Shown here one piece after another: positions 1,121 to 44,383 of a DNA stretch of 64,000 nt. This stretch comes from Escherichia phage Esco_phi_B-01, in the sequence record OP292222.1. One strand, given 5' to 3'. Under the pieces are notes generated by a model. That model saw nothing but the letters and a program-made list of their open reading frames with translations, ran no database searches and had not been told where the DNA came from. The first letter of the stretch is position 1; each line of letters begins with the position of its first letter. Position numbers and translations under genes: made by a program.

Positions 1121-1294
1121 ATGACGAATTCGACGGATTTTGATAAGATTAAATCTGACAAAAATGAGATGATACTTAAATTTGAAGCTGCTCGTATTAA
1201 AGCGGAAAATGAAGGTACTATTACCTATAAGCCTATCAAGTTCAGGTCTTCTCATGAACCTCTGTACGGGGTATTAATTGGTAAAGGAGCTTAG
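1121..1294 (+). CDS. small hypothetical protein (57 aa)
   Basis: ATG preceded by aagaggtc; stop codon lies inside the terminator hairpin at 1285-1306. Confidence 0.35.
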   Translation: MTNSTDFDKIKSDKNEMILKFEAARIKAENEGTITYKPIKFRSSHEPLYGVLIGKGA

Positions 1295-1306
1295 GCTCCT
1301 TTTTTG
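1285..1306 (+). terminator. intrinsic terminator (aggagc-ttag-gctcct + TTTTT)
   Basis: perfect 6-bp GC-rich stem followed by T run. Confidence 0.6.
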
Positions 1307-1334
1307 CTTTATATTCGGATGATAAAATGAATTT

Positions 1335-5134: not shown

Positions 5135-5554
5135 ATGTTTGCTACTTCTAATGGCGTTACCGTTAAAGATATCCAAGTTAAAACCATCCGTACTGATTCC
5201 AACCCACATAATCAGAACCGTATCCGTAAATCATGGGTACTGAATATTGATACCAACTCTGCACGCCGATTGCAGTCTCTTCCACAAGAAACCAAGTTTA
5301 TGCTGTACAGTATCATCGATAATGATGTATCTGATAAGTGGATTGAAATCATGCGTAAACACTTTAAAGATTCTTTGGCTGCAGGTGCTAAACTTGTTAT
5401 CGACCGCGACGGTTCTGAACGTTTAGAAGATGATTATTGCGTCGACCCTGATGAGCAGTTGCTTGAAGCCGGTTCTATTATTGCTTCCAAGATTCCAGAG
5501 TATATTGAATCTCTGCCTGAATCAATCCGTAAACAAATGATCGTAATTGCTTAA
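5135..5554 (+). CDS. rpbA: RpbA-like protein (name by position between genes 46 and 45)
   Basis: ORF track; RBS gagagaaaa; name is positional only, start could be 5120. Confidence 0.5.
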   Translation: MFATSNGVTVKDIQVKTIRTDSNPHNQNRIRKSWVLNIDTNSARRLQSLPQETKFMLYSIIDNDVSDKWIEIMRKHFKDSLAAGAKLVIDRDGSERLEDDYCVDPDEQLLEAGSIIASKIPEYIESLPESIRKQMIVIA

Positions 5555-5579
5555 TAATTTGACTTGATAAGGAAACATT

Positions 5580-6278
5580 ATGAAATTCTCTAAAGAAACC
5601 CTGAACATTCTTAAAAACTTCTCTGGTATTAACCCAGGCATTATGCTTAAACCAGGTAACACCATTCTGACCCGATCTGTTACCGGTGCAAGTTACGGTG
5701 AAGCTACTGTAAGTGATACCTTCGATATCGAAGCGGCAATCTATGATTTGAATGGCTTCTTAAGTATTCTGTCTTTGGTATCGGAAAGTGCTGAAGTTTC
5801 GGTAAGTGAAGACCAAACCACATTAATTATTAAAGACCAACGTTCAACAATTAAGTGGCCTATTGCTGACCCAAGCACAATCGCATTCCCAAGTAAAGCT
5901 ATTCCGTTCCCTGTGGCTGAAGTTATTTTCGACCTGAAAGCCGAAGATTATCAACAGTTGATGCGTGTGTCCTCCGGTCTGAGTATTGATACATTTGCAA
6001 TCACTGTAGACGATGGTAAAATTGTTATCAACGGTTATAAACAAGTCGACGATAAAGAATTAACTCGTCCATTGTATTCTCTGGTCGTGGCTGACCATGA
6101 TGGTCCTGACTTTAAGTTCATCATTAACAAAACCAATATGAAAATGATGCCTGCCGATTATCATGTGTTGTTATGGGCGCGCGGTGAAGGTCAGGATGCT
6201 CGATTTGCAGCTAAGTTTGAAGGTACACAAGCTTCTTACGTATTAGCTATGGAAGCAGGCTCAAGCCACTCGTTCTAA
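5580..6278 (+). CDS. 45: gp45 sliding clamp
   Basis: near full-length similarity to T4 gp45 ([25 protein letters not shown]... LLWARGEG). Confidence 0.93.
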   Translation: MKFSKETLNILKNFSGINPGIMLKPGNTILTRSVTGASYGEATVSDTFDIEAAIYDLNGFLSILSLVSESAEVSVSEDQTTLIIKDQRSTIKWPIADPSTIAFPSKAIPFPVAEVIFDLKAEDYQQLMRVSSGLSIDTFAITVDDGKIVINGYKQVDDKELTRPLYSLVVADHDGPDFKFIINKTNMKMMPADYHVLLWARGEGQDARFAAKFEGTQASYVLAMEAGSSHSF

Positions 6279-6284
6279 AGCATA

Positions 6285-6301
6285 GGGAGGAATTTCCTCC
6301 C
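6285..6301 (+). other. perfect 8-bp inverted repeat (gggaggaa t ttcctccc) without T run, upstream of gene 44
   Basis: seen directly; followed by ttggagtataat. Confidence 0.4.
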
Positions 6302-6339
6302 TTGGAGTATAATGTAAAAACAAACCTGAGGAAATTAAT

Positions 6340-7299
6340 ATGCTTACAGTAAATAATAATGAATTCATGTTCGAACAGAAATATCGTCCAGGTACTTTAT
6401 CTGAATGTATTCTGCCTGCTCATGATAAAGAAACTCTCCAAGCCATTGTTAATAAGGGCCTAATCCCTAACATTATCCTAGTCTCTGCTTCACCAGGCAC
6501 AGGTAAAACTACCGTGGCTAAAGCATTGTGTGCTGATACAAATTCAGACATGTTGTTTGTTAACGGTTCCGACTGTCGTATTGATTTCGTTCGTAACGAA
6601 CTTACTCGTTTTGCATCTTCTAAATCTATCGAAGGTAAACGTAAGGTAATTGTTATTGACGAATTCGACCGTGCTGGTGTTGCTGAAGCTCAACGCCACC
6701 TTCGTTCATTCTTAGAGGCCTATTCCTCAAACTGTTCTGTAATTATTACAGCAAACAATATTGATGGTATCATCGGTCCACTTCAATCCCGTTGTCGTGT
6801 AATTAAATTTGGTGAAGCCACTCCAGCTGACCAAACAGCCATGATGAAAGAAATGATTCATCGTGCCGTAGCAATTTGTAAAAACGAAAATATCGAAGTC
6901 GAAGACCTTAAAGTTATTGCTGCTTTAGTTAAACAAAACTTCCCTGACTTCCGTAAAACAGTTAACCAACTGGACCGTTATTCCTCAAGTGGTAAAATCG
7001 ATGCAGGCATTTTGAGTATTGTAATGAATACCAATTCGCCTATTGATGAAGTAGTGGCTGCACTGAAAGATAAAAACTTTAAAGAACTCCGTGCATTAGC
7101 TCCACGTCATGTCAATGATTATGCCAACTTTATTATGGCATTGGCTAACGAACTCTATGGTAAATTGCCTGGACCAAGCATTGTTAGAATGTATGAAATC
7201 GTCGGTGAAAATAACCAATACCACGGTATTGCTGCTAACCCAGAAATTCACCTGACTTATCTGTTTATCCAACTTGCTCTGGAGCTCCAATGGCTATAA
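6340..7299 (+). CDS. 44: gp44 clamp loader large subunit (AAA+)
   Basis: SPGTGKTT Walker A, VIDEFDR, SRC motif; 319 aa as in T4. Confidence 0.93.
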   Translation: MLTVNNNEFMFEQKYRPGTLSECILPAHDKETLQAIVNKGLIPNIILVSASPGTGKTTVAKALCADTNSDMLFVNGSDCRIDFVRNELTRFASSKSIEGKRKVIVIDEFDRAGVAEAQRHLRSFLEAYSSNCSVIITANNIDGIIGPLQSRCRVIKFGEATPADQTAMMKEMIHRAVAICKNENIEVEDLKVIAALVKQNFPDFRKTVNQLDRYSSSGKIDAGILSIVMNTNSPIDEVVAALKDKNFKELRALAPRHVNDYANFIMALANELYGKLPGPSIVRMYEIVGENNQYHGIAANPEIHLTYLFIQLALELQWL

Positions 7300-7862
7300 G
7301 TCTTTTTGATGATGACGTTGAACTGAATGAACATGAAGTTGCTTGGAAACAACGTAACGACGCTGCTATTCAAGCCTTGGCCGATTCATTTAAAGAAAAG
7401 GCTGAAAACGAATTGTTTGCCATTATGAACGATATCACATACGGTAAAAAACAACGTAACTTGGCTCAATCAGAAAACTATAATCAATTTTGGCTAGATA
7501 ATAGTTTGAGCCAGCACGTAGATTGCATTATGCAAGCCGCGATGGTTAACTGTCTTAAACTTGACGACCAAAGTCACTTCAATTATCTTTTACATGCTGT
7601 TCCTAAGGGTAAGAGATTTGGTAAATGGGCTAAGGCCCATGATGATGAAGTTAGTGTAGTTTTTATTACTCGTTTATTGATGAAATACCATTCAATTAAT
7701 AATGATGACGCTTATCGTTATCTCGAGACTTATAAAATTAAAGGCCATCTTCCGGCAATGCTTAAGAAGATGAAAGGGTTGGTTACGGACGAGTTCCTGA
7801 AATCCGTAACTAAAAATGTGAAAGAACAAAAAGATTTGAAAAAGAAAGCATTGGAATGGTAA
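7290..7862 (+). CDS. 62: gp62 clamp loader small subunit
   Basis: similarity to T4 gp62 (LNEHEVAW, C-terminal VKEQKDLKKKALEW); overlaps gene 44 end. Confidence 0.85.
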   Translation: MAISLFDDDVELNEHEVAWKQRNDAAIQALADSFKEKAENELFAIMNDITYGKKQRNLAQSENYNQFWLDNSLSQHVDCIMQAAMVNCLKLDDQSHFNYLLHAVPKGKRFGKWAKAHDDEVSVVFITRLLMKYHSINNDDAYRYLETYKIKGHLPAMLKKMKGLVTDEFLKSVTKNVKEQKDLKKKALEW

Positions 7863-7868
7863 ATTAAA

Positions 7869-8231
7869 ATGATTGAAATTACTCTGAAACAACCTGAAGA
7901 CTTCTTGAAAGTGAAAGAGACCCTAACTCGTATGGGTATCGCTAATAATAAAGAAAAGAAACTATATCAATCCTGTCACATTTTGCAAAAGCAAGGACGG
8001 TATTATATTGTCCACTTTAAAGAGATGTTGCGTATGGATGGCCGCCAGGTAGATATCGATGGTGAAGACTACCAACGCCGTGATTCCATAGCCCAGCTTC
8101 TTAAGGATTGGGGACTTATTGATATTGTAGACGATTCTGAATTGTTCGAAATTACTAATAATTTCCGTGTCATTTCATTTAAACAGAAAAATGACTGGGA
8201 ACTGCTGTCTAAGTATACGATTGGTAATTAA
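7869..8231 (+). CDS. regA: RegA translational repressor
   Basis: near-identical to T4 RegA N-terminus (MIEITLKQPEDFLKVKETLTRMGIANNKEK). Confidence 0.9.
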   Translation: MIEITLKQPEDFLKVKETLTRMGIANNKEKKLYQSCHILQKQGRYYIVHFKEMLRMDGRQVDIDGEDYQRRDSIAQLLKDWGLIDIVDDSELFEITNNFRVISFKQKNDWELLSKYTIGN

Positions 8232-8241
8232 GTTTAAGCAA

Positions 8242-8261
8242 AGGGACTTTGGTCCCTTTTT
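8242..8261 (+). terminator. intrinsic terminator after regA (agggac-tttg-gtccct + TTTTT)
   Basis: GC stem plus T run; followed by ttggagtataat. Confidence 0.55.
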
Positions 8262-8319
8262 GGAGTATAATTATTCATCAACAAACAAAAGACAATCACT
8301 CGTCTATAAAGGAAATGAA

Positions 8320-11031
8320 ATGCAAGAATTCTATTTGACAGTCGAACAAATCGGTGATAATATTCTCGAACGTTACATCGATAAAAATGGTAACGAACGT
8401 AGTCGTGAAGTTCCTTACAAGCCTACAATGTTTATGCATGCCAACCCAGAGCAAGCCGTAAAATATATTGACATCTACGGTAAGGGCTGTGTTAAGAAAG
8501 AATTCGATTCAATGCGCGATGCTTCTCAGTGGATGAAGCGAATGGACGATATGGGTCTCGAAGCCCTTGGTATGGACGACTACAAATTAGCCTATTTGTC
8601 TGATACCTATCGTAAAGAAATCAAGTATGATTCTTCCAAGATTCGTATTGCTAACTTCGACATCGAGGTAACATCTCCTGATGGATTCCCTGAACCTGCC
8701 CAGGCTAAACATCCTATCGATGCCATTACTCACTACGACTCGATTGACGATAAATTCTATGTATTCGACCTTTTAGTTTCACCTTATGGTACGGTCGAAG
8801 AGTGGTCGATTAAAATCGCTGAGAAACTCCAAGACGAAGGTGGTGACGAAGTTCCACAAGAAATCATTGACAAAATCGTTTATCTTCCGTTTAATTCTGA
8901 AGAAGAAATGATGCTTGAGTATCTGAATTTCTGGCAACAGAAAACTCCTGTGATTTTGACTGGATGGAACGTTGAATCATTTGACGTGCCATACGTTTAT
9001 AACCGTCTGAAAAATCTGTTTGGTGAGAACACTGCTAAGCGATTAAGCCCGCATCGTAAGACTCGTGTTAAAGTTATCGAGAATATGTACGGTGTTCGTG
9101 AAATTATTACACTGTTCGGTATTTCTGTTCTGGATTATATCGACCTTTATAAAAAATTCAGCTTTACTAACCAGCCTTCTTATTCTCTGGATTATGTTTC
9201 TGAATATGAATTGAAAGTAGGTAAGTTGAAATATGATGGTCCTATCTCCAAGTTACGTGAGACAAACCACCAACGATATATTTCCTATAACATTATCGAC
9301 GTATATCGTGTTGTGCAGATTGATATGAAACGCCAGTTCATTCTTCTTAGTCTGGACATGGGTTATTATGCTAAGATGCAGATTCAGTCAGTGTTCAGTC
9401 CAATTAAGACTTGGGACGCTATTATCTTTAATAGCCTTAAAGAACAGGGTAAAGTTATTCCTCAGGCCAAATCGCATGCGGTTCAACCTTATCCAGGTGC
9501 TTTCGTTAAGGAACCTATTCCTAACGCGTACAAATATGTAATGAGTTTCGACCTTACATCTCTGTACCCAAGTATCATTCGACAAGTGAATATAAGCCCA
9601 GAGACCATCGCAGGCACATTCGCCAACGCACCGATACATGAATATATTGCCGGAACTGCTCCGCGTCCTAGCGACACCTACAGTTGCTCTCCTAACGGCA
9701 TGATGTACTATAAAGACCGTGATGGTGTGATTCCTACAGAAATCACGAAGGTGTTCTTACAACGTAAAGAACATAAAGGTTATATGCTCGCAGCTCAACG
9801 TAATGGTGAGTTAATTAAAGAAGCATTAGAAAATCCTAATCCATCTGTTGATAGTCCACTGGATATCGATTATCGTTTCGACTTCTCTGACGAAATCAAA
9901 GCCCAGATTAAAAAATTGTCAGCATCTTCTTTAAAAGAAATGTTGTTCAAAGCCGAACGTACTGAAGTCGCAGGTATGACTGCTCAGATTAACCGTAAGT
10001 TGCTTATCAACTCCCTTTATGGTGCACTTGGTAACGTATGGTTCCGTTACTATGACCTCAGGAACGCAACTGCAATCACATTGTTTGGTCAAATGGCCCT
10101 CCAATGGATTGAACGTAAGGTTAACGAATATCTGAATAGCGTATGTAAGACCGAAAACCAGAAGTTCGTGCTCTATGGTGATACCGACTCCATTTATGTT
10201 AAGGCCGATGCAATCATCAATAAAGTAGGCGAAGATAAATTCCGTGATACTAACCACTGGGTTGACTTCTTAGATAAATTTGCACGTGAACGTATGGAAC
10301 CAGCTATTGATGCAGGCTTCCGTGAGATGTGTGAATACATGAACAATAAACAGCACTTGATGTTCATGGACCGAGAAGCTATCGCAGGTCCTCCACTTGG
10401 TTCTAAAGGTCTTGGTGGATTCTGGACAGGCAAGAAACGTTATGCACTGAACGTTTGGGACATGGAAGGTACTCGTTATGCCGAACCACACTTGAAAATC
10501 ATGGGTCTCGAAACTCAGAAATCAAGTACACCTAAAGCGGTTCAGAAAGCACTGAAAGAATGTATCCGTCGTATGCTTCAAGAAGGCGAGGCCTCTTTGC
10601 AAGAGTATTTCAAACAGTTTAATAAGGAATTTAACGAATTAGACTATGTAAGCATTGCTGCAGTATCCAGTGCTAACAACATCGAGAAATATAATGAAGG
10701 TGGTTTCCCTGGTTCTAAATGCCCGTATCACATCAAAGGTTGCTTAGCTTACATGCGTGCTTCTGCTGGTGATTTGACTATGCCTCGTATCGTTGATGGT
10801 GAAAAGGTATATGTACTGCCACTTAAAGAAGGCAACCCGTTCGGTGAAGCTTGTATGGCATGGCCGTCAGGTATTGAACTTCCGATTCAGATTCGTGACC
10901 AAGTCCTCCGTTGGATGGACTACAACGTACTGTTCCAAAAGACCTTTATCAAACCCCTGACCGGTTTTACTGAGTCTGCTAAAATCGACTACGAGAAAAA
11001 AGCAACATTATTTGACATGTTTGACTTTTAA
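8320..11031 (+). CDS. 43: gp43 DNA polymerase (family B)
   Basis: start MQEFYL aligned to T4 MKEFYI; exo motifs (FDIE), pol motifs (SLYPS, YGDTDS); RBS aaaggaaa. Confidence 0.95.
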   Translation: MQEFYLTVEQIGDNILERYIDKNGNERSREVPYKPTMFMHANPEQAVKYIDIYGKGCVKKEFDSMRDASQWMKRMDDMGLEALGMDDYKLAYLSDTYRKEIKYDSSKIRIANFDIEVTSPDGFPEPAQAKHPIDAITHYDSIDDKFYVFDLLVSPYGTVEEWSIKIAEKLQDEGGDEVPQEIIDKIVYLPFNSEEEMMLEYLNFWQQKTPVILTGWNVESFDVPYVYNRLKNLFGENTAKRLSPHRKTRVKVIENMYGVREIITLFGISVLDYIDLYKKFSFTNQPSYSLDYVSEYELKVGKLKYDGPISKLRETNHQRYISYNIIDVYRVVQIDMKRQFILLSLDMGYYAKMQIQSVFSPIKTWDAIIFNSLKEQGKVIPQAKSHAVQPYPGAFVKEPIPNAYKYVMSFDLTSLYPSIIRQVNISPETIAGTFANAPIHEYIAGTAPRPSDTYSCSPNGMMYYKDRDGVIPTEITKVFLQRKEHKGYMLAAQRNGELIKEALENPNPSVDSPLDIDYRFDFSDEIKAQIKKLSASSLKEMLFKAERTEVAGMTAQINRKLLINSLYGALGNVWFRYYDLRNATAITLFGQMALQWIERKVNEYLNSVCKTENQKFVLYGDTDSIYVKADAIINKVGEDKFRDTNHWVDFLDKFARERMEPAIDAGFREMCEYMNNKQHLMFMDREAIAGPPLGSKGLGGFWTGKKRYALNVWDMEGTRYAEPHLKIMGLETQKSSTPKAVQKALKECIRRMLQEGEASLQEYFKQFNKEFNELDYVSIAAVSSANNIEKYNEGGFPGSKCPYHIKGCLAYMRASAGDLTMPRIVDGEKVYVLPLKEGNPFGEACMAWPSGIELPIQIRDQVLRWMDYNVLFQKTFIKPLTGFTESAKIDYEKKATLFDMFDF

Positions 11032-17904: not shown

Positions 17905-19328
17905 AAACTATTTTGGCTCAACTGCTAGGCAATAGTGATTATTTCACTAAGGTCTGGCCTTATATGAATGATTCTTATTTTGACCAGGGTCCGGCAAAGA
18001 CCCTTTTCAAAGAAATCAAAAAACATGTCAATGAATATAATGCGGTGCCTTCTAAAAATGCTTTGAGTATTGCATTAGATAACAGCACCCTTTCAGAAGT
18101 TGAACATCAAGGAGCTAAAGAGCTTTTAAATTCTCTGAATGCAGGCCCTGAAGACCAAGAATGGTTGGTTAAAGAGACAGAGAAATATGTTCAGAAGGCA
18201 GCGATGTATAATGCCACTTCAAAAATTATTGAAATTCAAACTAATGCCGACCTTCCGGTTGAGCAACAAAATAGAAAACTCCCAGGTATTGGTGCTATTC
18301 CAGATATCATGCGTGATGCATTATCGATTTGTTTCGATTCTGAATTAGGCCATGACTGGATGGATGACTATGAAGAACGTTTTAAAAGTTATTCTGATAA
18401 AGCACGTAAGGTTCCATTCCGTCTTAATATTCTGAATAAGATTACTAAGGGTGGCGCTGAGTTTGGTACTGAAAACGTATTGTTAGCAGGAACAAACGTA
18501 GGTAAGTCTCTGGGTCTGTGTTCATTGGCTGCTGATTACCTTCAATCCGGTTACGATGTTCTTTATATCTCCATGGAGATGGCAGAGGAAGTATGTGCTA
18601 AGCGTATCGATGCTAACCTTCTAGATGTATCACTGGATGATATTGATGATGGTCACGTCTCATGGCCTGAATATAAAGCCAAGATGGATAAGTGGCGTTC
18701 AACTGCTACTTTAGGTCGTTTAAAGATTAAACAGTATCCTACTGGTGGTGCTAATGCCGATACATTCCGTGCATTATTAAACGAATACAAGCTCAAACAA
18801 AACTTTGTCCCACAGGTCGTTATCGTCGACTACTTGGCCATCTGTGCTTCATCCCGTACGAAAGTTTTCTCTGAAAACAGTTATGGATTGATTAAGATGG
18901 TTGCCGAAGAACTACGTGGACTTGCAGTAGAGAAGAAATTATTGTTGTGGACTGCAGCCCAGACTACTCGTGGCGCGAACGTTGCAGCCGAAATCGATAT
19001 GGCTGATATCGCTGAATCCTTTGGTATTGCACATACTGCAGACTTCATGTTAGGTGTGGTCGAGACAGAAGAGTTTGCTCAGATGGGTATGCAGATGGTT
19101 AAGCAGCTTAAATCCCGTTATGGTGATAAGAGCTACTACAACAAATTTAAGATTGGTGTTAAGAAAGGAAACCAGCGTTGGTATGAAGTTGAAGACGATT
19201 CTAACCCAGGCCCAGTGAACACCGTTCGTGAGGCTACAGGTGAAATGAATCGCCAAGCAGAGGTCAATCGTCAGTCGCGTGTTAATAGAAGCGATTTAGA
19301 CGATTTAGCAGCATCTATCAAATTTTAA
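17889..19328 (+). CDS. 41: gp41 replicative DNA helicase (DnaB-like)
   Basis: GTG start aligning MVEVV.. to T4 MVEII..; Walker A GTNVGKS; C-terminus like T4 gp41. Confidence 0.93.
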   Translation: MVEVVETILAQLLGNSDYFTKVWPYMNDSYFDQGPAKTLFKEIKKHVNEYNAVPSKNALSIALDNSTLSEVEHQGAKELLNSLNAGPEDQEWLVKETEKYVQKAAMYNATSKIIEIQTNADLPVEQQNRKLPGIGAIPDIMRDALSICFDSELGHDWMDDYEERFKSYSDKARKVPFRLNILNKITKGGAEFGTENVLLAGTNVGKSLGLCSLAADYLQSGYDVLYISMEMAEEVCAKRIDANLLDVSLDDIDDGHVSWPEYKAKMDKWRSTATLGRLKIKQYPTGGANADTFRALLNEYKLKQNFVPQVVIVDYLAICASSRTKVFSENSYGLIKMVAEELRGLAVEKKLLLWTAAQTTRGANVAAEIDMADIAESFGIAHTADFMLGVVETEEFAQMGMQMVKQLKSRYGDKSYYNKFKIGVKKGNQRWYEVEDDSNPGPVNTVREATGEMNRQAEVNRQSRVNRSDLDDLAASIKF

Positions 19329-19349
19329 GGAGCTTCGGCTCCTTTTTTG
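19328..19349 (+). terminator. intrinsic terminator (aggagc-ttcg-gctcct + T6)
   Basis: UUCG-loop hairpin plus T run immediately after gene 41. Confidence 0.65.
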
Positions 19350-19357
19350 TTTTAAGG

Positions 19358-19386
19358 GTTTACTTCTCCTGTAGGCATGATACTAT
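19358..19386 (+). promoter_or_regulatory. T4-type early promoter (GTTTAC - 17 - TGaTACTAT)
   Basis: consensus -35/-10 and conserved leader atagacctgtcaactaatggag. Confidence 0.65.
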
Positions 19387-20316: not shown

Positions 20317-20346
20317 GTTTACAACGGTCTATGGTAGTGATACTAT
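20317..20346 (+). promoter_or_regulatory. T4-type early promoter (GTTTAC - 18 - TGaTACTAT)
   Basis: consensus plus conserved leader atagacctatcaactaatgaggag. Confidence 0.65.
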
Positions 20347-20374
20347 AGACCTATCAACTAATGAGGAGTTAAAA

Positions 20375-23627: not shown

Positions 23628-23632
23628 TTATA

Positions 23633-23656
23633 AGGAACCTTCGGGTTCCTTTTTTC
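23633..23656 (+). terminator. intrinsic terminator (aggaacc-ttcg-ggttcct + T6)
   Basis: GC stem, UUCG loop, T run. Confidence 0.7.
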
Positions 23657-23665
23657 GTTTTAGTA

Positions 23666-23695
23666 GTTTACTTTACGAGTAGGCCATGTTAAGAT
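23666..23695 (+). promoter_or_regulatory. T4-type early promoter (GTTTAC - 18 - TGtTAAGAT)
   Basis: -35 consensus with weaker -10. Confidence 0.5.
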
Positions 23696-26967: not shown

Positions 26968-27717
26968 ATGCCTACTATTAAAACTAGCGATGAATTTGAG
27001 TTAAAGGTTTACAACCGCCGCAAACACACCAAAGCTTCTGCTTATAAACGTGGTAAGGACTTCAATCTGTCTAGTAAGTATGTTCGTAGACTTCTCGAAC
27101 AAAAAGTGTGCGCTTATTCAGGCGAGTACTTTGATGAAAATTCAGTTAATGATAAGATTTCATTTGAACGTTTTAACAACGATATCGGCTATATTGAGGG
27201 TAATGTAATCCCAGTTAAAGTTAAGTATAACAGCTTACGTGCCGATTTGTCCCTTGATGAACTGAAACGTGCCCAGACTCGTTTAGCAGTTCGTATTTCA
27301 GGTAGTTCTAAAATGCCTAATAGTTTTAAAGTTACCCCTGATAATTATTATAAAATCCGTAAAATCGTTAAAAATATAAAAGATACCCAAAGAGGTCTTA
27401 AAAAACGTGAAAAACGTCTTAAAGACCTTATTAAATCGGGAGCTACTGATAAGACTCCTTCTGTTATCGCGGTTAAGGCCCGTATCCACGGTTCTAACGC
27501 TTCAATCGGTACTATGGAAAAAGGTCTTAAATCTTTAATTGGTGGGCCTGACTGGCGCGTCAAGTTTAAATTGTCTGAAGCAGAAACGCGTTACGATATG
27601 TATGATAAAATTATTCAAGGTCTGGAGCGTTTAGAACACCTTTCTTTTATTGACAAATTGAAGTTGAAAAAAGGTCTTCCGCTGAATGCTTCAATTTTTT
27701 CACTGATTAGAGGTTAA
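26968..27717 (+). CDS. srd: Srd-like protein (name by position and size)
   Basis: 249 aa ORF located modA - srd - dda.1 - dda as in T4; contains a CxxxGE...N...N HNH-like core lacking the His residues. Confidence 0.55.
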   Translation: MPTIKTSDEFELKVYNRRKHTKASAYKRGKDFNLSSKYVRRLLEQKVCAYSGEYFDENSVNDKISFERFNNDIGYIEGNVIPVKVKYNSLRADLSLDELKRAQTRLAVRISGSSKMPNSFKVTPDNYYKIRKIVKNIKDTQRGLKKREKRLKDLIKSGATDKTPSVIAVKARIHGSNASIGTMEKGLKSLIGGPDWRVKFKLSEAETRYDMYDKIIQGLERLEHLSFIDKLKLKKGLPLNASIFSLIRG

Positions 27718-27721
27718 CGTG

Positions 27722-28018
27722 ATGTACTATGCATACGTATTAGTTCACAAGGACAAAGACGGGTATGAAATTCCATTAGAAGATGCCGGTGAAGTGACTT
27801 TGTATTCGACAAAGATTGGAGCCGACACTGCTTTAGAGGCTTATGAAATCTCAACAAAAAGATATCTTCGGCTTGGACGCCTTGAAACAGTGTGCACGCC
27901 AAGAAAATGGTGGTTTGATAAGTGGGAAACTAAAACAGTTTTTCCTACCAAAGAACGGGCCCGAGAATTAAAATTGATTTTAGACACTTTATATGTTAAG
28001 CGAGTAAAATTGGCATGA
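27722..28018 (+). CDS. hypothetical protein (98 aa), dda.1 position
   Basis: ORF track; ATG just after GTG. Confidence 0.45.
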   Translation: MYYAYVLVHKDKDGYEIPLEDAGEVTLYSTKIGADTALEAYEISTKRYLRLGRLETVCTPRKWWFDKWETKTVFPTKERARELKLILDTLYVKRVKLA

Positions 28019-29346
28019 TTACATTTGAAGACTTGAATATTGGGCAACGGACGGCCTTTAAAGAAATCATTGAAGCTGTTAAACGACGTAAGGGCGAATG
28101 GATTACATTGAATGGTCCTGCGGGTACAGGTAAAACGACCCTTACTAAATTTATCCTTGACCACTTAGTCAAGAATGGCGAACTCGGAGTTATTTTGACC
28201 GCACCTACGCACGCGGCCAAGAAGGTATTGTCGAAACTCGCAGGCCAAGAAGCATCGACAATCCACCGAATCTTAAAGATTAACCCGACTACATACGAAG
28301 ACCAGGATATTTTTGAACAACGTGAAGCTCCTGATTTGAGCAAATGTAATGTTCTTGTGGTCGACGAAGGCTCAATGATTGACGGTAAGTTGTTTAAGAT
28401 TATCGAAGCATCGGTTCCACCATGGTGCACTGTACTGGGGATTGGCGACCGAGCTCAGTTACAGCCAGTAGAACCTGGAAGTGATGGAAGTCCTCAGTTG
28501 TCTCCATTCTTTACCCATCCTAAAATTAAACAGCTACACCTTACTGAAGTAATGCGTAGTAATGCTCCTATCATTGAGGTTGCTACTGAAATCCGTAATG
28601 GTGGATGGTTCCGAGATTGTATATTCGAAGGTCACGGTGTCCATGGTTTTAAATCTCAAACGGCTTTAAAAGATTTTATGATGAATTATTTTTCCATCGT
28701 AAAAGATGCTGATGCCTTGTTTGAGAATAGGATGTTTGCTTATACAAATAAATCAGTTGAAAAACTGAATAGTATTATTCGTAAAAAGCTTTATGAAACC
28801 GATGCACCTTATATCAAGGGCGAAATCCTCGTGATGCAAGAGCCTTTTATTAAGGAACTTGAATATGACGGTAAGAAATTCTCTGAAACCATTTTTAATA
28901 ACGGCCAGATGGTTCGTATTTTAGATGTGAACCACACCTCATTGTTCTTGTCTGCCAAGGATGTAGGCACTCGCCAGATGATTAATTACTGGGACCTCCA
29001 GGTTGAATCTGTTGATGAGGATGACGAGTACTACGTAGAACACTTGAAAGTTATTGATGAGGCTTCAGTTGAGAAGTTCCATTATTTCTTGGCTAAGGTG
29101 GCTACTGAGTACAAGGCCATGCGTGGGACTGGTAATAAACCTAAGTGGGCTGATTTCTGGAAAGCCAAGCGAATGTTCACTAAGGTCCGAGCTCTTCCGG
29201 TGAGCACTGTTCATAAATCACAGGGCCTTACTGTCCAAAACAGTTTCATCTATACTCCGTGCATGCACATGGCTGATGCGAATTTAGCTTCACAGCTGGC
29301 TTATGTTAGTATTACCCGTGCTCGTACTGATGCCTATTATGTTTGA
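28015..29346 (+). CDS. dda: Dda DNA helicase (SF1B)
   Basis: LNGPAGTGKTT Walker A, VVDEGSM Walker B, C-terminal SITRAR motif; 443 aa. Confidence 0.9.
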   Translation: MITFEDLNIGQRTAFKEIIEAVKRRKGEWITLNGPAGTGKTTLTKFILDHLVKNGELGVILTAPTHAAKKVLSKLAGQEASTIHRILKINPTTYEDQDIFEQREAPDLSKCNVLVVDEGSMIDGKLFKIIEASVPPWCTVLGIGDRAQLQPVEPGSDGSPQLSPFFTHPKIKQLHLTEVMRSNAPIIEVATEIRNGGWFRDCIFEGHGVHGFKSQTALKDFMMNYFSIVKDADALFENRMFAYTNKSVEKLNSIIRKKLYETDAPYIKGEILVMQEPFIKELEYDGKKFSETIFNNGQMVRILDVNHTSLFLSAKDVGTRQMINYWDLQVESVDEDDEYYVEHLKVIDEASVEKFHYFLAKVATEYKAMRGTGNKPKWADFWKAKRMFTKVRALPVSTVHKSQGLTVQNSFIYTPCMHMADANLASQLAYVSITRARTDAYYV

Positions 29347-29353
29347 GGAAAAT

Positions 29354-29593
29354 ATGATTAAAGTAACTAAAGACCAATTTTATAAGTTGAAATTCGAAAC
29401 CGAATATATTATTAAGGTCAACCCAGACGATACAAATATCCGTGGCAAGGCTCATAAGGTCTTGCATTCACTTAAAGAGATTGAAAGTGATTTTATTGCA
29501 GTGCAAAAACTGATGGACGACAACATCTCTTCGGTTTATATTGAAGACTATACTGTTGGCCAAATCCGAGACCTTATGAGGTACGTTAAATGA
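29354..29593 (+). CDS. hypothetical protein (79 aa)
   Basis: start after RBS gaggaaaat. Confidence 0.5.
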   Translation: MIKVTKDQFYKLKFETEYIIKVNPDDTNIRGKAHKVLHSLKEIESDFIAVQKLMDDNISSVYIEDYTVGQIRDLMRYVK

Positions 29594-30264
29594 AAGATAT
29601 AATTATTGACTTCGAAACCTTTGCCACTACCCAAAATGCAGCAGTTATCGACCTCGCCGTAATTGCTTATGACCCTAATCCAGAGGTAGTAGAATCTTTT
29701 GAAGAGCTTACTCAACGTGGCCTTCGTATTAAATTCGATTTGGCTTCTCAACGCGATAAACGTCTGTTCTCTAAAAGCACATTGCAGTGGTGGAAAGAAC
29801 AAGGACCTGAAGCACGTAAAAACCTGGCTCCGTCCGAAATTGATGTGAGTACTTCTATCGGCATTGGTAATTTCTTGGAATACTGCCGTAAAAACGAAGT
29901 GGACCAATGGAAATCCCAGATGTGGTGCCGCGGAATGTCCTTTGACTTTCCAATCTTAGTGGACCTTATTCGTGATGCTTATCGTTCTGAAGGTGTTCCT
30001 GAGAACGAAATCGATACCACTAAGTTGGAACCGGTTAAATTCTGGAACCAACGCGATATCCGTACGGCCATTGAAGCCTATTCACTGACGCGTGGATTAA
30101 GCATGTGCCCTCTGCCTAACGGGACATTGAATGGCTTTGTGGCTCACGACTCTATCCATGACTGCGCCAAGGATATCTTGATGCTGAAATATGCCCAACG
30201 ATATGCTTTAAACCTGGAAGATGTTCCTGAGAATCCAGACCCATTAAGTGTAAAAAATCGATAA
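29590..30264 (+). CDS. dexA: DexA exonuclease A (DnaQ-like 3'-5' exonuclease)
   Basis: IIDFETFAT exo I motif, HDSIHDCAKD exo III; 224 aa; position after dda. Confidence 0.8.
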   Translation: MKDIIIDFETFATTQNAAVIDLAVIAYDPNPEVVESFEELTQRGLRIKFDLASQRDKRLFSKSTLQWWKEQGPEARKNLAPSEIDVSTSIGIGNFLEYCRKNEVDQWKSQMWCRGMSFDFPILVDLIRDAYRSEGVPENEIDTTKLEPVKFWNQRDIRTAIEAYSLTRGLSMCPLPNGTLNGFVAHDSIHDCAKDILMLKYAQRYALNLEDVPENPDPLSVKNR

Positions 30265-31381: not shown

Positions 31382-31410
31382 GTTTACTTTATCGAGGGCC
31401 ATGTTATAAT
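31382..31410 (+). promoter_or_regulatory. T4-type early promoter (GTTTAC - 17 - TGtTATAAT)
   Basis: consensus elements. Confidence 0.6.
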
Positions 31411-31452
31411 GGCTCTCATGGATTATAAACCTTTAACCAAGAGAGAAAAATT

Positions 31453-32033: not shown

Positions 32034-32063
32034 GTGTACAACAAGATAGGGTAGTGATAAGAT
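32034..32063 (+). promoter_or_regulatory. early-type promoter variant (GTGTAC - 18 - TGaTAAGAT) inside an inverted repeat agggta/taccct
   Basis: near-consensus -35 and extended -10. Confidence 0.4.
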
Positions 32064-32179
32064 TACCCTATCAAAACAAATGAGTGATGGAGAATAAAAA
32101 TGTTTGCACCTTATATTATGATTGCAGTTATCGTTATCTGTCTGTATCTTTTAATTAAAGCTTGTTAAGGAGATTCAAA

Positions 32180-32993: not shown

Positions 32994-33254
32994 ATGAAAT
33001 ATGTTAATCGTTCTATCGCGGCTCTTGTACTAGCAGTTTCGTTGGTTGGTTGTACTGATGCCGATAATGCTACCCGTGTATTAGATGCAAATGGCTACGA
33101 ACAAATCCAAATCACGGGATACAACCTATTTGGCTGTTCTGAAGATGATTTCCAACGTACAGGCTTTATTGCTGTAGGGCCGACAGGTAAAAGGGTTGAA
33201 GGAACAGTTTGTTCCGGGTTATTCTTTAAAAAGTCGACCATTCGATTTGATTAA
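32994..33254 (+). CDS. putative lipoprotein (86 aa)
   Basis: signal peptide with lipobox LVGC. Confidence 0.55.
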   Translation: MKYVNRSIAALVLAVSLVGCTDADNATRVLDANGYEQIQITGYNLFGCSEDDFQRTGFIAVGPTGKRVEGTVCSGLFFKKSTIRFD

Positions 33255-33270
33255 GGGCTTCGGCCCTTTT
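33253..33270 (+). terminator. intrinsic terminator (aagggc-ttcg-gccctt + TT)
   Basis: UUCG hairpin plus T run. Confidence 0.55.
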
Positions 33271-33271
33271 A

Positions 33272-33296
33272 TGCTTTAAGTGAAATGGGATAATAT
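33272..33296 (+). promoter_or_regulatory. MotA-dependent middle promoter for gene 39 (TGCTTTA - 12 - TAATAT)
   Basis: exact MotA-box core with correct spacing. Confidence 0.5.
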
Positions 33297-35342: not shown

Positions 35343-35346
35343 TTAA

Positions 35347-35364
35347 GGGCCGCAAGGCCCTTTT
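35347..35364 (+). terminator. intrinsic terminator (gggcc-gcaa-ggccc + TTTT)
   Basis: GC stem with GNRA loop and T run. Confidence 0.6.
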
Positions 35365-35368
35365 CGGG

Positions 35369-35396
35369 GTTTACAACAGATTAAAAGTGTGATACG
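35369..35396 (+). promoter_or_regulatory. early-type promoter (GTTTAC - 16 - TGtGATACG), weak -10
   Basis: consensus -35 only. Confidence 0.35.
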
Positions 35397-35416
35397 ATTC
35401 TCTAAGAGGTGAGAAT

Positions 35417-41653: not shown

Positions 41654-41681
41654 TTTACAACCTCGAGAATCATGTTATAAT
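41653..41681 (+). promoter_or_regulatory. T4-type early promoter (GTTTAC - 17 - TGtTATAAT)
   Basis: consensus elements. Confidence 0.6.
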
Positions 41682-41730
41682 GGTTCTCGTTGACTGGATA
41701 ACAAAACATTAATCTACTGAGGAAATTGAT

Positions 41731-42861: not shown

Positions 42862-44241
42862 ATGGCTGATGTAATTGATACCCTTTTTAAACAATCCTTA
42901 GATGTTTACGATGATGCTTTTACTCGTCGTGACTTAAAAAGCATTATCGACAATGAAGCGCTGGCTTACGCAATGTATACTGTCGAAAACCGCGCCATTC
43001 CAAATATGATTGATGGCTTTAAACCCGTACAACGTTTTGTAGTTGCTCGTTGTCTTGATATGGCTCGTGGTAATAAAGAAAAATTCCACAAATTAGCTTC
43101 TATTGCAGGTGGTGTAGCCGACCTTGGATATCACCATGGTGAAGGCTCTGCTCAAGAAGCAGGTGCTCTGATGGCTAACACTTGGAACAACAACTTCCCA
43201 CTGTTGGATGGCCAGGGTAACTTTGGTTCTCGATTGGTTCAAAAAGCAGCGGCATCTCGTTATATTTTTGCACGTATTGGAACTAATTTCGCAAAGGTTT
43301 ATAAGGATACAGAATATGCTCCGGTTCATGCGGATGTCGAACATAAGCCACCAGCTTTTTATCTGCCTATTATTCCTACTGTTCTTCTTAATGGTATTTC
43401 CGGTATTGCAACTGGTTATGCAACTAATATTCTTCCTCATAGTTTTGATTCTGTTAAGAAAGCTGTATTGCAGGTTCTTCAAGAAAAACGCGTAACCAAG
43501 CCTAAGGTGGCTTATCCGGAATTCCGTGGTGATGTGGTTGAGATTGAACCAGGTAGTTATGAACTACGAGGCACGTATAAGTTCACATCTCGAACCCAAA
43601 TGCATATCACAGAAATCCCGTACAAATACGACCGTGAAACGTATGTGGCCAAGGTATTAGACCCTCTAGAAGACAAAGGGTATATCACATATGATGACGA
43701 TTGTGACGAGAATGGTTTCGGCTTCAAGGTTAAGATTCGTAAAGAATATGAATTGCCTACTGAAGAAAATAAGAAGCACGAAAAAATCATGAAGGACTTT
43801 GGGTTAATCGAACGCCGTTCACAAAACCTGACTGTCATTAATGAGAAAGGTAAACTTAAGGTTTACGAAGATGCAGTTGAACTGATTCGTGATTTCGTTG
43901 AGGTCCGTAAGACCTTTGTACAAAAACGTATTGATGGTAAAATCATCGAAACCGAAGAAGCTTTCAAACTGGCATTGGCTAAAGCCACCTTTATCAAAGA
44001 TGTTATTGATGGAATTGTGGTTATCCAAGGTAAGACTCGTAAGGTTTTAACCGAAGAATTGGCTGGTAATAAAGTCTACGGCGAATATGCCGATAAACTC
44101 GTAGCAATGAATATTTTCCATATCACTTCCGATGAAGCTAAGAAACTGGCTTTGGAAGCCAAGGCTAAGAAAGAAGAGCACCAATACTGGAAAACCACTG
44201 ATGTTGTAACTGAGTATGTTAAAGATTTGGAGGCTCTATGA
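42862..44241 (+). CDS. 52: gp52 DNA topoisomerase II medium subunit (GyrA-like)
   Basis: 459 aa; RAIPNMIDGFKPVQR motif typical of the GyrA/ParC N-terminus. Confidence 0.92.
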   Translation: MADVIDTLFKQSLDVYDDAFTRRDLKSIIDNEALAYAMYTVENRAIPNMIDGFKPVQRFVVARCLDMARGNKEKFHKLASIAGGVADLGYHHGEGSAQEAGALMANTWNNNFPLLDGQGNFGSRLVQKAAASRYIFARIGTNFAKVYKDTEYAPVHADVEHKPPAFYLPIIPTVLLNGISGIATGYATNILPHSFDSVKKAVLQVLQEKRVTKPKVAYPEFRGDVVEIEPGSYELRGTYKFTSRTQMHITEIPYKYDRETYVAKVLDPLEDKGYITYDDDCDENGFGFKVKIRKEYELPTEENKKHEKIMKDFGLIERRSQNLTVINEKGKLKVYEDAVELIRDFVEVRKTFVQKRIDGKIIETEEAFKLALAKATFIKDVIDGIVVIQGKTRKVLTEELAGNKVYGEYADKLVAMNIFHITSDEAKKLALEAKAKKEEHQYWKTTDVVTEYVKDLEAL

Positions 44242-44342
44242 GCCTTGGAGTCGAGTTCTTGTTACTCTGTATCTTTGCTGTTATCCTAGGCCTGGCAACA
44301 GGCTTAGCTATAGGTTTAATAGCGGCTCACTTTAAAAAGTAA
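44238..44342 (+). CDS. small membrane peptide (34 aa)
   Basis: ATGA overlap with gene 52 stop; ends at the terminator. Confidence 0.3.
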   Translation: MSLGVEFLLLCIFAVILGLATGLAIGLIAAHFKK

Positions 44343-44365: not shown

Positions 44366-44383
44366 GGTTTAGTGCAAAAAAGT

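What the first reader, a model, noticed from the sequence alone, without database searches (positions are those of the whole stretch)
6285..8271. Hairpin plus TTGGAGTATAAT module repeated upstream of genes 44 and 43
Both gene 44 (6285-6312) and gene 43 (8242-8271) are preceded by a GC-rich hairpin immediately followed by ttggagtataat about 40 nt before the start codon. The gene 43 copy has a T run (terminator-like) and the gene 44 copy does not. A shared structure next to a GGAG-containing -10-like sequence could be a processing or translational-control site, for example RegB-type cleavage at GGAG or the gp43 and RegA operators, rather than a simple promoter.
Basis: inference. Interest (0 to 1): 0.35.

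Follow-up and report, generated by a model that had tools for sequence, protein, structure and literature searches.

The report
Hairpin-plus-promoter punctuation in T-even replication genes
The repeated hairpin plus TTGGAGTATAAT is real, but the gene 43 copy is the counterpart of phage T4's already mapped gene 43 middle promoter sitting against the regA terminator hairpin, so it is a known kind of gene-boundary signal, with a possible but untested extra role as a RegB RNA-cutting site.

Summary
The window comes from a JS98/JS10-type T-even coliphage (Dhakavirus). TTGGAGTATAAT occurs exactly twice, at 6302-6313 and 8260-8271, each directly after a stable GC-rich hairpin that closes the upstream cistron (gene 45; regA).

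The gene 43 copy is orthologous to T4. T4 has hairpin + TTATTTGGAGTATAAT at the same place, and its mapped middle promoter P43 starts 5 nt after that TATAAT. AGTATAAT is invariant there in most of the roughly 12 lineages compared. The real gp43 operator hairpin lies further downstream, at 8290-8305, and RegA-type targets lie at the start codons. The module is neither operator.

Both hairpins show compensatory changes across genera. The regA hairpin is followed by U5 and looks like a terminator. The gene 45 hairpin is not.

At gene 44 the conserved part across genera is hairpin + GGAGUA + A/U-rich sequence. The -10 hexamer is perfect only in Dhakaviruses. GGAGUAUAAU matches 9 of 11 bases of the RegB/S1 model substrate GGAGUAUAAAA, and the lineage encodes RegB. 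RegB cutting of read-through RNA is therefore plausible but untested.

Neither copy has a -35 hexamer or a canonical MotA box. Verdict: a new member of a known kind, of low interest.

The parts
6284..6302 (+). RNA hairpin closing gene 45 (AGGGAGGA-auu-UCCUCCCU). Only two U follow it, so it is probably a 3'-end stabiliser or barrier, or at most a weak terminator.
   Evidence: Fold -13.0 kcal/mol, z = -2.6. A hairpin is present at this junction in nearly all T-even relatives examined, with many different stems and compensatory changes at all 8 pairs.
6302..6313 (+). TTGGAGTATAAT, gene 44 copy.
   Evidence: Exact match. Invariant in 9 Dhakavirus sequences.
6304..6314 (+). RegB/S1-like 11-mer GGAGUAUAAUG. 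It would be present only in RNA reading through from gene 45.
   Evidence: 9 of 11 identical to the motB minimal substrate GGAGUAUAAAA; 4 of 7 to the 3' consensus RAYARAA; no C. GGAGUA is conserved after this hairpin in Gaprivervirus, PM2, Kanagawavirus and L052.
6308..6313 (+). Perfect sigma-70 -10 hexamer TATAAT, 26 nt before the gene 44 ATG. A possible lineage-specific weak promoter for 44-62-regA; the start would be near 6319-6320 (inference).
   Evidence: No -35 hexamer and no MotA box upstream (sequence). In other genera the hexamer is TACAAA, TATTAA, TATTGA or TAATAA. T4 has hairpin + TT + TATAAT, but no P44 is listed among T4 middle promoters.
8240..8259 (+). RNA hairpin closing regA (AAAGGGAC-uuug-GUCCCUUU; core GGGAC/GUCCC followed by UUUUU). 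An intrinsic-terminator-like element.
   Evidence: Fold -11.5 kcal/mol, z = -3.1. Orthologous hairpins followed by a U-rich tail occur in all 40 distinct relatives that have a full-length spacer, with compensatory changes at 7 of 8 pairs. The equivalent site is annotated 'terminator' in phages e11/2 and Merlin.
8260..8271 (+). TTGGAGTATAAT, gene 43 copy.
   Evidence: Exact match. The identical 12-mer is at the orthologous place in T4, Mosigvirus G53 and L055-57.
8262..8272 (+). RegB/S1-like 11-mer GGAGUAUAAUU. It would be present only in read-through RNA from regA.
   Evidence: Same scoring as the gene 44 copy. GGAG is kept here in about 7 of 12 lineages and replaced by GUAG, AGAG or GGGG in others.
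8266..8271 (+). -10 element of the orthologue of T4 middle promoter P43.
   Evidence: The T4 P43 start site 29933 lies 5 nt after the TATAAT of the same 12-mer. TATAAT is invariant upstream of gene 43 in about 12 lineages.
8276..8278 (+). Predicted transcription start of the P43 orthologue.
   Evidence: Inference by position from T4 (TATAAT-atatC/A versus TATAAT-tattC/A). Not measured.
8290..8305 (+). Context, not part of the module: gp43 translational-operator-like hairpin AGAC-AAUCACUC-GUCU, followed by AUAAAGGAAAUGAAAUG.
   Evidence: Aligns with the T4 operator AGCCU-AAUAACUC-GGGCU and the RB69-type AGAC-AAUAACUC-GUCU. Operator description from PMC3014915.
6326..6342 (+). Context, not part of the module: gene 44 translation initiation region CUGAGGAAAUUAAUAUG, similar to the T4 gene 44 RegA target region.
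   Evidence: T4 has AAUGAGGAAAUUAUG. The RegA target on gene 44 is quoted as AAAUUAUGAUU in PMC3014915.

Best explanation
The two modules are intercistronic punctuation signals of the T-even replication-gene cluster (45 | 44-62-regA | 43). Each packs two or three overlapping signals into about 30 bp.

**1. The hairpin.** It forms in RNA at the end of the upstream cistron. After regA it is followed by U5 and acts as a leaky intrinsic terminator. After gene 45 it has no U tract and mainly stabilises or blocks the 3' end.

**2. The TATAAT.** It abuts the hairpin and is a sigma-70 -10 element. At gene 43 it is the orthologue of the -10 of T4's mapped middle promoter P43. RNA is predicted to start at about 8276-8278, so the leader begins just upstream of the gp43 operator hairpin at 8290-8305.

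**3. The GGAG.** It lies upstream of that start, so it exists only in RNA reading through from upstream promoters. There GGAGUAUAAU, single-stranded just 3' of the hairpin, is a plausible RegB/S1 cleavage site. Cleavage would cut the upstream cistron, protected by its hairpin, away from the downstream one.

**Gene 44 copy.** The ancestral, conserved part is hairpin + GGAGUA. Dhakaviruses have in addition a perfect -10, which may give a weak extra promoter for 44-62-regA.

**Shown versus inferred.**
- Shown: the sequences, the hairpin covariation, orthology with T4, and the presence of motA, asiA and regB.
- Taken from the literature: the T4 P43 start site and RegB specificity.
- Inferred: promoter activity and termination in this phage, any RegB cleavage, and any promoter at gene 44.
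For: **Identity of the window.** It is 99% identical to JS10/JS98 over 5800-8700. Gene order is 45, 44, 62, regA, 43.

**T4 orthology.** T4 has hairpin + TTATTTGGAGTATAAT + operator hairpin + Shine-Dalgarno sequence upstream of gene 43. T4 P43 start site 29933 is 40 nt upstream of ATG 29893 and 5 nt after TATAAT.

**MotA dependence in T4.** The T4 region containing genes 43, 45 and 44/62 is strongly MotA-dependent in RNA-seq (PMC6024815). motA and asiA are in the window.

**Conservation.** (A/G)GTATAAT is kept upstream of gene 43 in about 12 lineages while the flanks diverge.

**Hairpins.**
- regA hairpin: 93% of cells paired, 7 of 8 pairs with double changes.
- Gene 45 hairpin: 85% paired, 8 of 8 pairs with double changes. 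For both, 0 of 500 shuffles reach the observed covariation score.
- U-rich tails follow the regA hairpin in all relatives.

**RegB.**
- Consensus GGAGRAYARAA and substrate GGAGUAUAAAA (PMC1702504; PMC3014915).
- regB is present in JS10.
- Canonical RegB-type Shine-Dalgarno sequences occur in the window.
- GGAGUA is conserved after the gene 45 hairpin where the -10 is not.

**General layout.** Hairpin followed by a promoter is the general intergenic layout in this phage and is the published PeSL/PmSL layout. Gene 43 is flanked by PeSLs in RB49/phi1 (PMC2839356; PMC4122927).
Against: **No upstream promoter element.** Neither copy has a -35 hexamer; the sigma-70 scan does not call them. Neither has a MotA box at the canonical place. 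Position -30 falls inside the hairpin: T4 has GCTT at -33..-30, the window has ACTT at -32..-29, and the gene 44 copy has nothing similar. How RNA polymerase is recruited is therefore unexplained. More distant relatives (CC31-like, Klebsiella phages, Merlin) do have TGCTAT or TACTTTA at N11-12 between hairpin and -10.

**Gene 44.** No P44 is listed for T4.

**GGAG is not universal at gene 43.** Gaprivervirus has GUAG, PM2 has AGAG, and L035/36 and L052/54 have GGGG.

**RegB match is partial.** The 3' part matches only 4 of 7 consensus positions and lacks the conserved A at position 11.

**Terminator call.** The simple terminator scan called neither hairpin.

**No RNA data.** No RNA-end data exist for any Dhakavirus in the material I could read. 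I could not see Figure 3A of PMC1702504, which lists the T4 GGAG sites that are cut.

**Hairpin alignments.** They were anchored on predicted hairpins, so the percentage paired is partly by construction.
Confidence: 0.6

Rival explanations
1. Pure RNA-processing element. The hairpin plus GGAGUAUAAU exists to be cut by RegB (with S1) in polycistronic RNA, and the TATAAT is only the A/U-rich 3' half of the RegB site, not a working promoter. This may hold for the gene 44 copy even if it is false for the gene 43 copy.
For: At gene 44 only GGAGUA + A/U-rich sequence is conserved across genera. The hexamers TACAAA, TATTAA, TATTGA and TAATAA lack the key T at -7. The 11-mer matches the motB substrate at 9 of 11 bases. 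There is no -35 hexamer or MotA box. regB is present in the lineage. RegB is reported to stimulate gp43 synthesis in T4 (PMC3014915).
Against: The T4 P43 start site lies 5 nt after the same TATAAT. TATAAT is invariant at gene 43 while GGAG is lost in several lineages. The match to the 3' consensus is only 4 of 7. The stimulation of gp43 by RegB may be indirect (PMC1702504 introduction).
Confidence: 0.15
2. Host RNase E/G processing site. A stable hairpin followed by a single-stranded A/U-rich stretch (AGUAUAAU) is cut by RNase E or G. This separates the stable upstream mRNA from the downstream cistrons, and the GGAG plays no specific part.
For: The hairpin + A/U-rich layout is seen at both sites. 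RNase E and G process many T4 mRNAs (PMC3014915). T4's gene 44 copy has hairpin + UUUAUAAUUU without GGAG. The title of Hsu and Karam 1990 mentions mRNA processing sites in this cluster.
Against: It does not explain the conservation of GGAG/GGRG itself or the invariant TATAAT at gene 43. No cleavage data could be found.
Confidence: 0.08
3. Ordinary terminator plus ordinary -10, with the shared TTGGAG an accident of descent or of local gene conversion and no function of its own.
For: Repeated 12-mers are common (about 250 chance pairs). GAGTATAAT and GGAGTATAAT also occur in ordinary early promoters of JS10. GGAG is replaceable at gene 43. In Dhakaviruses the two modules also share AAGCAnAGGGA, which suggests copying between them.
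Against: GGAGUA follows the gene 45 hairpin in five lineages with diverged flanks, and GG(A/G)G precedes the P43 -10 in most lineages. That argues for selection on these bases.
Confidence: 0.12
4. The module hairpins are the gp43 or RegA translational operators.
For: They are hairpins upstream of genes known to be translationally repressed in T4 (PMC3014915).
Against: The operator homologue, with loop AAUCACUC next to the Shine-Dalgarno sequence, is a different hairpin at 8290-8305. The module loops are UUUG/UUCG and AUU. RegA sites are unstructured and lie at the AUG. P43-initiated RNA would not even contain the module.
Confidence: 0.02

Closest known systems
T4 middle promoter P43 with the regA-distal C(UUCG)G hairpin
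   Same: Same genomic position (between regA, or an inserted small ORF, and gene 43). Identical TTGGAGTATAAT. A GC-rich tetraloop hairpin with a U-rich tail immediately upstream. The gp43 operator hairpin and Shine-Dalgarno sequence downstream. The start site is listed in PMC2988021 Table 1.
   Different: Stem and loop sequence differ (GGGAC-UUUG-GUCCC versus GGGGC-UUCG-GCCCC). The spacing from hairpin to -10 is 1 nt shorter. The leader is longer (48 versus 44 nt from TATAAT to ATG). No experimental data exist for the Dhakavirus.
PeSL / PmSL composite terminator-promoter cassettes of T4-like phages (Arbiol 2010; Comeau 2014)
   Same: Stem-loop, then promoter, then Shine-Dalgarno sequence, then start codon in an intergenic space. 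Gene 43 is flanked by PeSLs in RB49/phi1. The regA-43 spacer is a hotspot for gain and loss of a small ORF. Other intergenic spaces of this window carry canonical versions.
   Different: In PeSL/PmSL the stem-loop lies upstream of a complete promoter (-35 hexamer or MotA box plus -10). Here the stem-loop occupies the -35/-30 position and only the -10 remains. These sites lie in the conserved core, not in a hyperplastic region.
RegB/S1 cleavage sites (GG*AGRAYARAA)
   Same: GGAG in an intergenic, single-stranded, C-free, A/U-rich context. 9 of 11 identical to the motB minimal substrate GGAGUAUAAAA.
   Different: It is not a Shine-Dalgarno sequence. U replaces A at position 10 and G or U replaces A at position 11. 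It lies in a middle-gene cluster, and most middle transcripts are reported to be RegB-resistant. Cleavage is untested.
gp43 translational operator of T4/RB69
   Same: A hairpin in the gene 43 leader.
   Different: It is a different hairpin: the operator homologue is at 8290-8305. The module hairpin lacks the 8-nt AAUAACUC-type loop and lies 60 nt from the ATG.

Membership tests
T4-type MotA-dependent middle promoter | Sigma-70 -10 element TAnnnT | tested here: met
   TATAAT at 6308-6313 and 8266-8271.
T4-type MotA-dependent middle promoter | MotA box (a/t)(a/t)(a/t)TGCTT(t/c)A with GCTT at -30..-27, 11-13 bp from the -10 (PMC1524935) | tested here: not met
   Gene 43 copy: ACTT at -32..-29, inside the hairpin loop. 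Gene 44 copy: GGGAGGAAT at -35..-27. Canonical boxes at N11-12 are easily seen elsewhere in the window (5099, 1303, 33269, 22784) and upstream of gene 43 in CC31-like, Klebsiella and Merlin phages. T4 P43 itself has GCTT 3 bp too far upstream.
T4-type MotA-dependent middle promoter | MotA and AsiA encoded by the phage | tested here: met
   Pfam MotA_activ + MotCF at 44791-45423 and AsiA at 46978-47253.
T4-type MotA-dependent middle promoter | Positional orthology with an experimentally mapped middle promoter | tested here: met
   Gene 43 copy only: T4 P43 start 29933 lies 5 nt after the same TATAAT. No P44 is listed for T4.
T4-type MotA-dependent middle promoter | MotA/AsiA-dependent primary 5' end | not testable with these tools
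   Needs RNA from infected cells.
Intrinsic (rho-independent) terminator | GC-rich stem-loop conserved as a structure | tested here: met
   Both hairpins.
Intrinsic (rho-independent) terminator | U tract directly after the stem | tested here: inconclusive
   Gene 43 copy: GUCCC + UUUUU (met if the stem is taken as 5 bp). Gene 44 copy: only UU (not met). The tool's scan called neither.
RegB/S1 cleavage site | Invariant GGA(G/U), unpaired | tested here: met
   GGAG at 6304-6307 and 8262-8265, outside the stable hairpin. Only a weak alternative pairing appears in the gene 43 leader.
RegB/S1 cleavage site | A-rich, C-poor 7 nt on the 3' side (RAYARAA; A at positions 6, 8, 11 most conserved) | tested here: inconclusive
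   UAUAAUG and UAUAAUU: 4 of 7. A at positions 6 and 8 but not at 11. No C. 9 of 11 identical to GGAGUAUAAAA.
RegB/S1 cleavage site | regB gene in the phage | tested here: met
   Annotated regB in JS10 at 55557-56015. That region lies outside this window.
RegB/S1 cleavage site | regB-dependent cut between G and A in vivo | not testable with these tools
   No data found. The figure listing the T4 sites is not held.
gp43 translational operator | Hairpin with 8-nt loop containing UAAC/UAAA-type bases, adjacent to and continuous with the Shine-Dalgarno region (PMC3014915) | tested here: not met
   The module loop is UUUG and lies 60 nt from the ATG. The operator homologue is at 8290-8305.
RegA operator | Unstructured A/U-rich sequence at or next to the initiator AUG | tested here: not met
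   The module ends 26 nt (gene 44) and 48 nt (gene 43) before the AUG and includes a stable hairpin.
PeSL/PmSL cassette | Stem-loop upstream of a complete promoter (-35 hexamer or MotA box, plus -10), then Shine-Dalgarno sequence and ATG | tested here: not met
   Stem-loop, -10, Shine-Dalgarno sequence and ATG are present, but there is no -35 hexamer or MotA box.
PeSL/PmSL cassette | Association with indels between close relatives | tested here: met
   A 72-aa ORF is present or absent just upstream of the gene 43 hairpin. No indel is seen at the 45-44 junction.

The most novel reading that the evidence does not exclude
A dual-coded switch. The same 10 bases would serve in DNA as the -10 of a middle promoter and in RNA as a RegB/S1 cleavage site placed just 3' of a protective hairpin. 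Transcripts that start at the promoter begin downstream of the GGAG and escape RegB. Early read-through transcripts carry the site and are cut at the cistron boundary. This would uncouple 45 | 44-62-regA | 43 expression and help the early-to-middle hand-over. It would give a concrete reason why RegB spares middle transcripts and why it stimulates gp43 synthesis.
Probability: 0.2. Interest if true: 0.45.

Novelty: new member of a known kind. Interest (0 to 1): 0.2.

Why it matters
It mostly confirms that the regulatory layout worked out for T4 (terminator hairpin, P43, gp43 operator) is kept in JS98-type phages, which helps annotate them. Two small open points remain.

First, how does P43 work in T4, Dhakavirus and several other genera when the hairpin occupies the place of the MotA box, while more distant relatives keep a proper box?

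Second, is the conserved GGAGUA after the gene 45 and regA hairpins a RegB site that separates cistrons? If it is, it would link promoter architecture to selective decay of read-through RNA.

Tried and rejected
- **Sigma-70 and terminator consensus scan.** It called neither module, which shows the lack of a -35 hexamer but is otherwise uninformative.
- **Rfam search of 5500-8600 at E <= 1.** No match.
- **MotA box search at N11-13.** Absent from both copies. The GCTT/ACTT in the hairpin loops is 2-3 bp out of register and is not conserved across genera, so I rejected it as a canonical box.
- **Late promoter TATAAATA.** The modules read TATAATGT and TATAATTA; rejected.
- **Small ORF reading.** The gene 44 copy reads GGAG-TATA-ATG-TAA, and some relatives have TATAATG at gene 43. 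This is not conserved across genera or even in this window; rejected as the main function.
- **PeSL-type recombination between the two copies.** The only nearby indel (the ORF between regA and 43) is not flanked by two modules.
- **Literature.** I looked for direct evidence of RegB cleavage upstream of T4 gene 43, or of a promoter or processing site upstream of gene 44, and found none in the papers held. Petrov and Karam 2002 and Trojanowska 1984 (looked up by PMC id) are not held. I did not look up Hsu and Karam 1990, Guild 1988 or Sanson 1993/2000; they are known here only as references in the reviews. There are no supplements for PMC1702504.
Full report
**What the window is.** The stretch 5800-8700 is 99% identical to Escherichia phages JS10 and JS98 (Dhakavirus, Tevenvirinae). 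The local genes are:
- 45 (5580-6278)
- 44 (6340-7299)
- 62 (7290-7862)
- regA (7869-8231)
- 43 (8320-11031)

These assignments rest, with the gene 43 start corrected. The window also encodes MotA (44791-45423) and AsiA (46978-47253). JS10 encodes RegB outside the region covered by the window.

**The observation.** TTGGAGTATAAT occurs exactly twice, at 6302-6313 and 8260-8271. It occurs nowhere else in a JS10-type genome. Each copy abuts a stable hairpin:
- 6284-6302: AGGGAGGA-att-TCCTCCCT, -13.0 kcal/mol.
- 8240-8259: AAAGGGAC-tttg-GTCCCTTT, -11.5 kcal/mol.

The stems differ in sequence. Apart from the 12-mer the modules share only AAGCAnAGGGA. The 12-mer starts 38 nt before the gene 44 ATG and 60 nt before the gene 43 ATG.

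A 12-mer repeat by itself is not unusual. About 250 chance pairs are expected in 64 kb. The case for function rests on comparison with relatives.

**The gene 43 copy is the T4 P43 region.** T4 reads, after the regA stop: GCAA-GGGGCTTCGGCCCC-TTATTTGGAGTATAAT-atatcaAGAGCCTAATAACTCGGGCTataaactaaggaatatctATG. That is the same 12-mer after a C(UUCG)G hairpin, followed by the well-known gp43 operator hairpin.

Hinton's review lists T4 middle promoter P43 with start site 29933, citing Guild 1988 and Hsu and Karam 1990. With gene 43 at complement(27197..29893), that start is 40 nt upstream of the ATG and 5 nt after the TATAAT. The same arithmetic places P45 correctly downstream of its MotA box and -10 (after applying the 14-nt coordinate correction found), which validates the coordinates. 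T4 RNA-seq shows that the 35.7-27.2 kb region, containing genes 43, 45 and 44/62, is highly MotA-dependent (PMC6024815).

Across 42 distinct regA/ORF-43 spacers from about 12 lineages, a hairpin with a U-rich tail is present in the 40 that are full-length. It is followed by (T/C/G)(T/C)GG(A/G)G-TATAAT or close variants. AGTATAAT is invariant in most lineages.

All these phages also keep a second hairpin with loop AAU(A/C/U)ACUC next to the Shine-Dalgarno sequence. In the window this is AGAC-AAUCACUC-GUCU at 8290-8305, the homologue of the T4/RB69 gp43 operator (PMC3014915). The module hairpin is therefore not the gp43 operator. RegA targets are unstructured sequences at the AUG, so it is not a RegA operator either.

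**An unresolved point about P43.** Canonical middle promoters have GCTT at -30..-27, 11-13 bp from the -10 (PMC1524935). They are obvious elsewhere in this window:
- TGCTTTA-N11-TATAAT before rpbA.
- Hairpin + TTTGCTTTA-N11-TAAAAT at 1283.
- Hairpin + ATGCTTTA-N12-TAATAT at 33253.

Upstream of gene 43 the picture splits. CC31-like, Klebsiella and Merlin-type phages have TGCTAT or TACTTTA at N11-12 between the hairpin and the -10. In T4, Dhakavirus, Mosigvirus, Gaprivervirus, PM2, Kanagawavirus and others the hairpin lies only 8-12 nt from TATAAT, so position -30 falls inside the hairpin. The loop-borne GCTT (T4) or ACTT (window) is 2-3 bp out of register and is not conserved. There is no -35 hexamer either. 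The window's module fails the MotA-box criterion, as T4 P43 itself does by sequence. I file it as the orthologue of P43, not as a canonical middle promoter.

**The hairpins are selected as structures.** I used alignments of distinct hairpin sequences: 22 of the distinct regA hairpins, and 22 of the gene 45 hairpins. Pairing was 93% for the regA hairpin and 85% for the gene 45 hairpin. Double-sided changes occurred at 7 of 8 and 8 of 8 pairs. In both cases 0 of 500 shuffles reached the observed covariation score, and slid controls scored far lower.

One caveat applies. I anchored the alignments on predicted hairpins, so the paired percentage is partly by construction. The informative fact is that nearly every genome has a hairpin at the same place with a different stem.

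The regA hairpin is annotated as a terminator in phages e11/2 and Merlin. The gene 45 hairpin is rarely followed by a U tract. I therefore read it as a 3'-end stabiliser or barrier rather than an efficient terminator.

**The gene 44 copy.** In T4 the gene 45 hairpin is followed by TT-TATAAT without GGAG, and no P44 is listed among T4 middle promoters. In the lineages nearest the window the hairpin is followed by GGAGTA plus A/T-rich sequence:

| Lineage | 11-mer after the hairpin |
|---|---|
| Dhakavirus | GGAGTATAATG |
| Kanagawavirus | GGAGTATTAAG |
| Gaprivervirus | GGAGTACAAAG / GGAGTATTGAG |
| PM2 | GGAGTATTAAT |
| L052 | GGAGTAATAAT |

The -10-critical T at -7 is present only in Dhakaviruses, whereas GGAGUA is invariant. 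That pattern fits an RNA-level signal better than a promoter.

RegB cuts GG*AG followed by a C-poor, A-rich heptamer (GGAGRAYARAA). The minimal efficient motB substrate is GGAGUAUAAAA (PMC1702504; PMC3014915). The window's 11-mers differ from it only at positions 10-11, and they score 4 of 7 on the degenerate consensus.

Several Shine-Dalgarno sequences in the window are perfect RegB sites, including that of motA, so the RegB system with T4-like specificity is very likely active in this lineage. RegB is also reported to stimulate gp43 synthesis in T4, although this may be indirect. No paper I could read says whether the T4 GGAG upstream of gene 43 is cut.

**Synthesis.** The modules are compact cistron-boundary signals:
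- an RNA hairpin (terminator or stabiliser);
- a -10 element pressed against it (certainly meaningful at gene 43, doubtful at gene 44);
- an overlapping GGAG that only read-through RNA carries and that may be a RegB site.

This matches the general layout of intergenic spaces in this phage and the published PeSL/PmSL concept. The difference is that the upstream promoter element is missing because the hairpin takes its place.

The operator ideas, and the claim that this is not a promoter, do not survive.

**Novelty and interest.** The gene 43 element is already known from T4, and the Dhakavirus version is a new member. The exact duplication of the 12-mer at gene 44 is a lineage detail. Interest is low (0.2).

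The most novel reading still open is a dual-coded -10/RegB site that lets RegB tell read-through transcripts from promoter-initiated ones. I give it a probability of about 0.2.

Noticed in passing
window 20326-20351, 31394-31417, 32045-32072, 41664-41689, 62306-62333, 62597-62626: Early promoters (GTTTAC-N17-TATAAT/TACTAT) carry 9-13 bp inverted repeats that begin right after the -35 hexamer. The -10 falls in the loop or the 3' arm (for example GGTCTATGGTA-gtga-TACTATAGACC). Several share the same arm sequence. This is a promoter-embedded dyad whose role (DNA-level, or a hairpin in read-through RNA) is unclear.
   Followed up: no
window 8290-8305: gp43 translational-operator-like hairpin AGAC-AAUCACUC-GUCU next to the Shine-Dalgarno sequence. 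The loop differs from T4/RB69 AAUAACUC by one base (UAAC to UCAC). The same variant occurs in Gaprivervirus, Kanagawavirus and CC31-like phages.
   Followed up: partly
window 8229-8240; L001 3934-4149: A 72-aa ORF ('43.1'-like) lies between regA and the hairpin in JS10, IME08, e11/2, Sf24, Merlin, PM2, Q7622 and EAWsc9. It is absent from the window, NC-G, VR5, T4, UPEC07 and G53. The window keeps the remnant GTTTAAGCA of the ORF's end, and regA and the ORF both end in AATT(T)AA. This suggests repeated deletion through short homology.
   Followed up: partly
window 1283-1330, 33253-33295; 19327-19385, 23632-23690, 35345-35400, 44341-44400: Canonical composite cassettes. Two sites have a terminator-like hairpin directly followed by a MotA box + -10. 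Four sites have a hairpin followed by a GTTTAC-type early promoter. This is the PeSL/PmSL-like architecture.
   Followed up: partly
window 32089, 62636, 30315, 26205, 44781: Shine-Dalgarno sequences that are perfect or near-perfect RegB/S1 sites: GGAGAAUAAAA, GGAGAACAAAA, GGAGAAUAAUA. The motA Shine-Dalgarno sequence, GGAGAUUAAAA, is among them, as in T4.
   Followed up: no
window 6304-6317; L002, L016 and L017, gene 43 leader: The gene 44 module reads GGAG-TATA-ATG-TAA, a Shine-Dalgarno sequence plus a start-stop pair. In NC-G, VR5 and IME08 the gene 43 module reads TATAATG, opening a 22-codon upstream ORF that overlaps the gene 43 start. The window has TATAATT instead.
   Followed up: partly
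window 44230-44258 (+) and 48750-48722 (-): Two further hairpins are followed directly by TTGGAG. One is after gene 52 (GGAGUCGAGUU, a poor RegB context). In the other the GGAG is the Shine-Dalgarno sequence of the next gene. In all, 5 of 26 transcribed-strand intergenic hairpins have GGAG within 4 nt of the stem.
   Followed up: no
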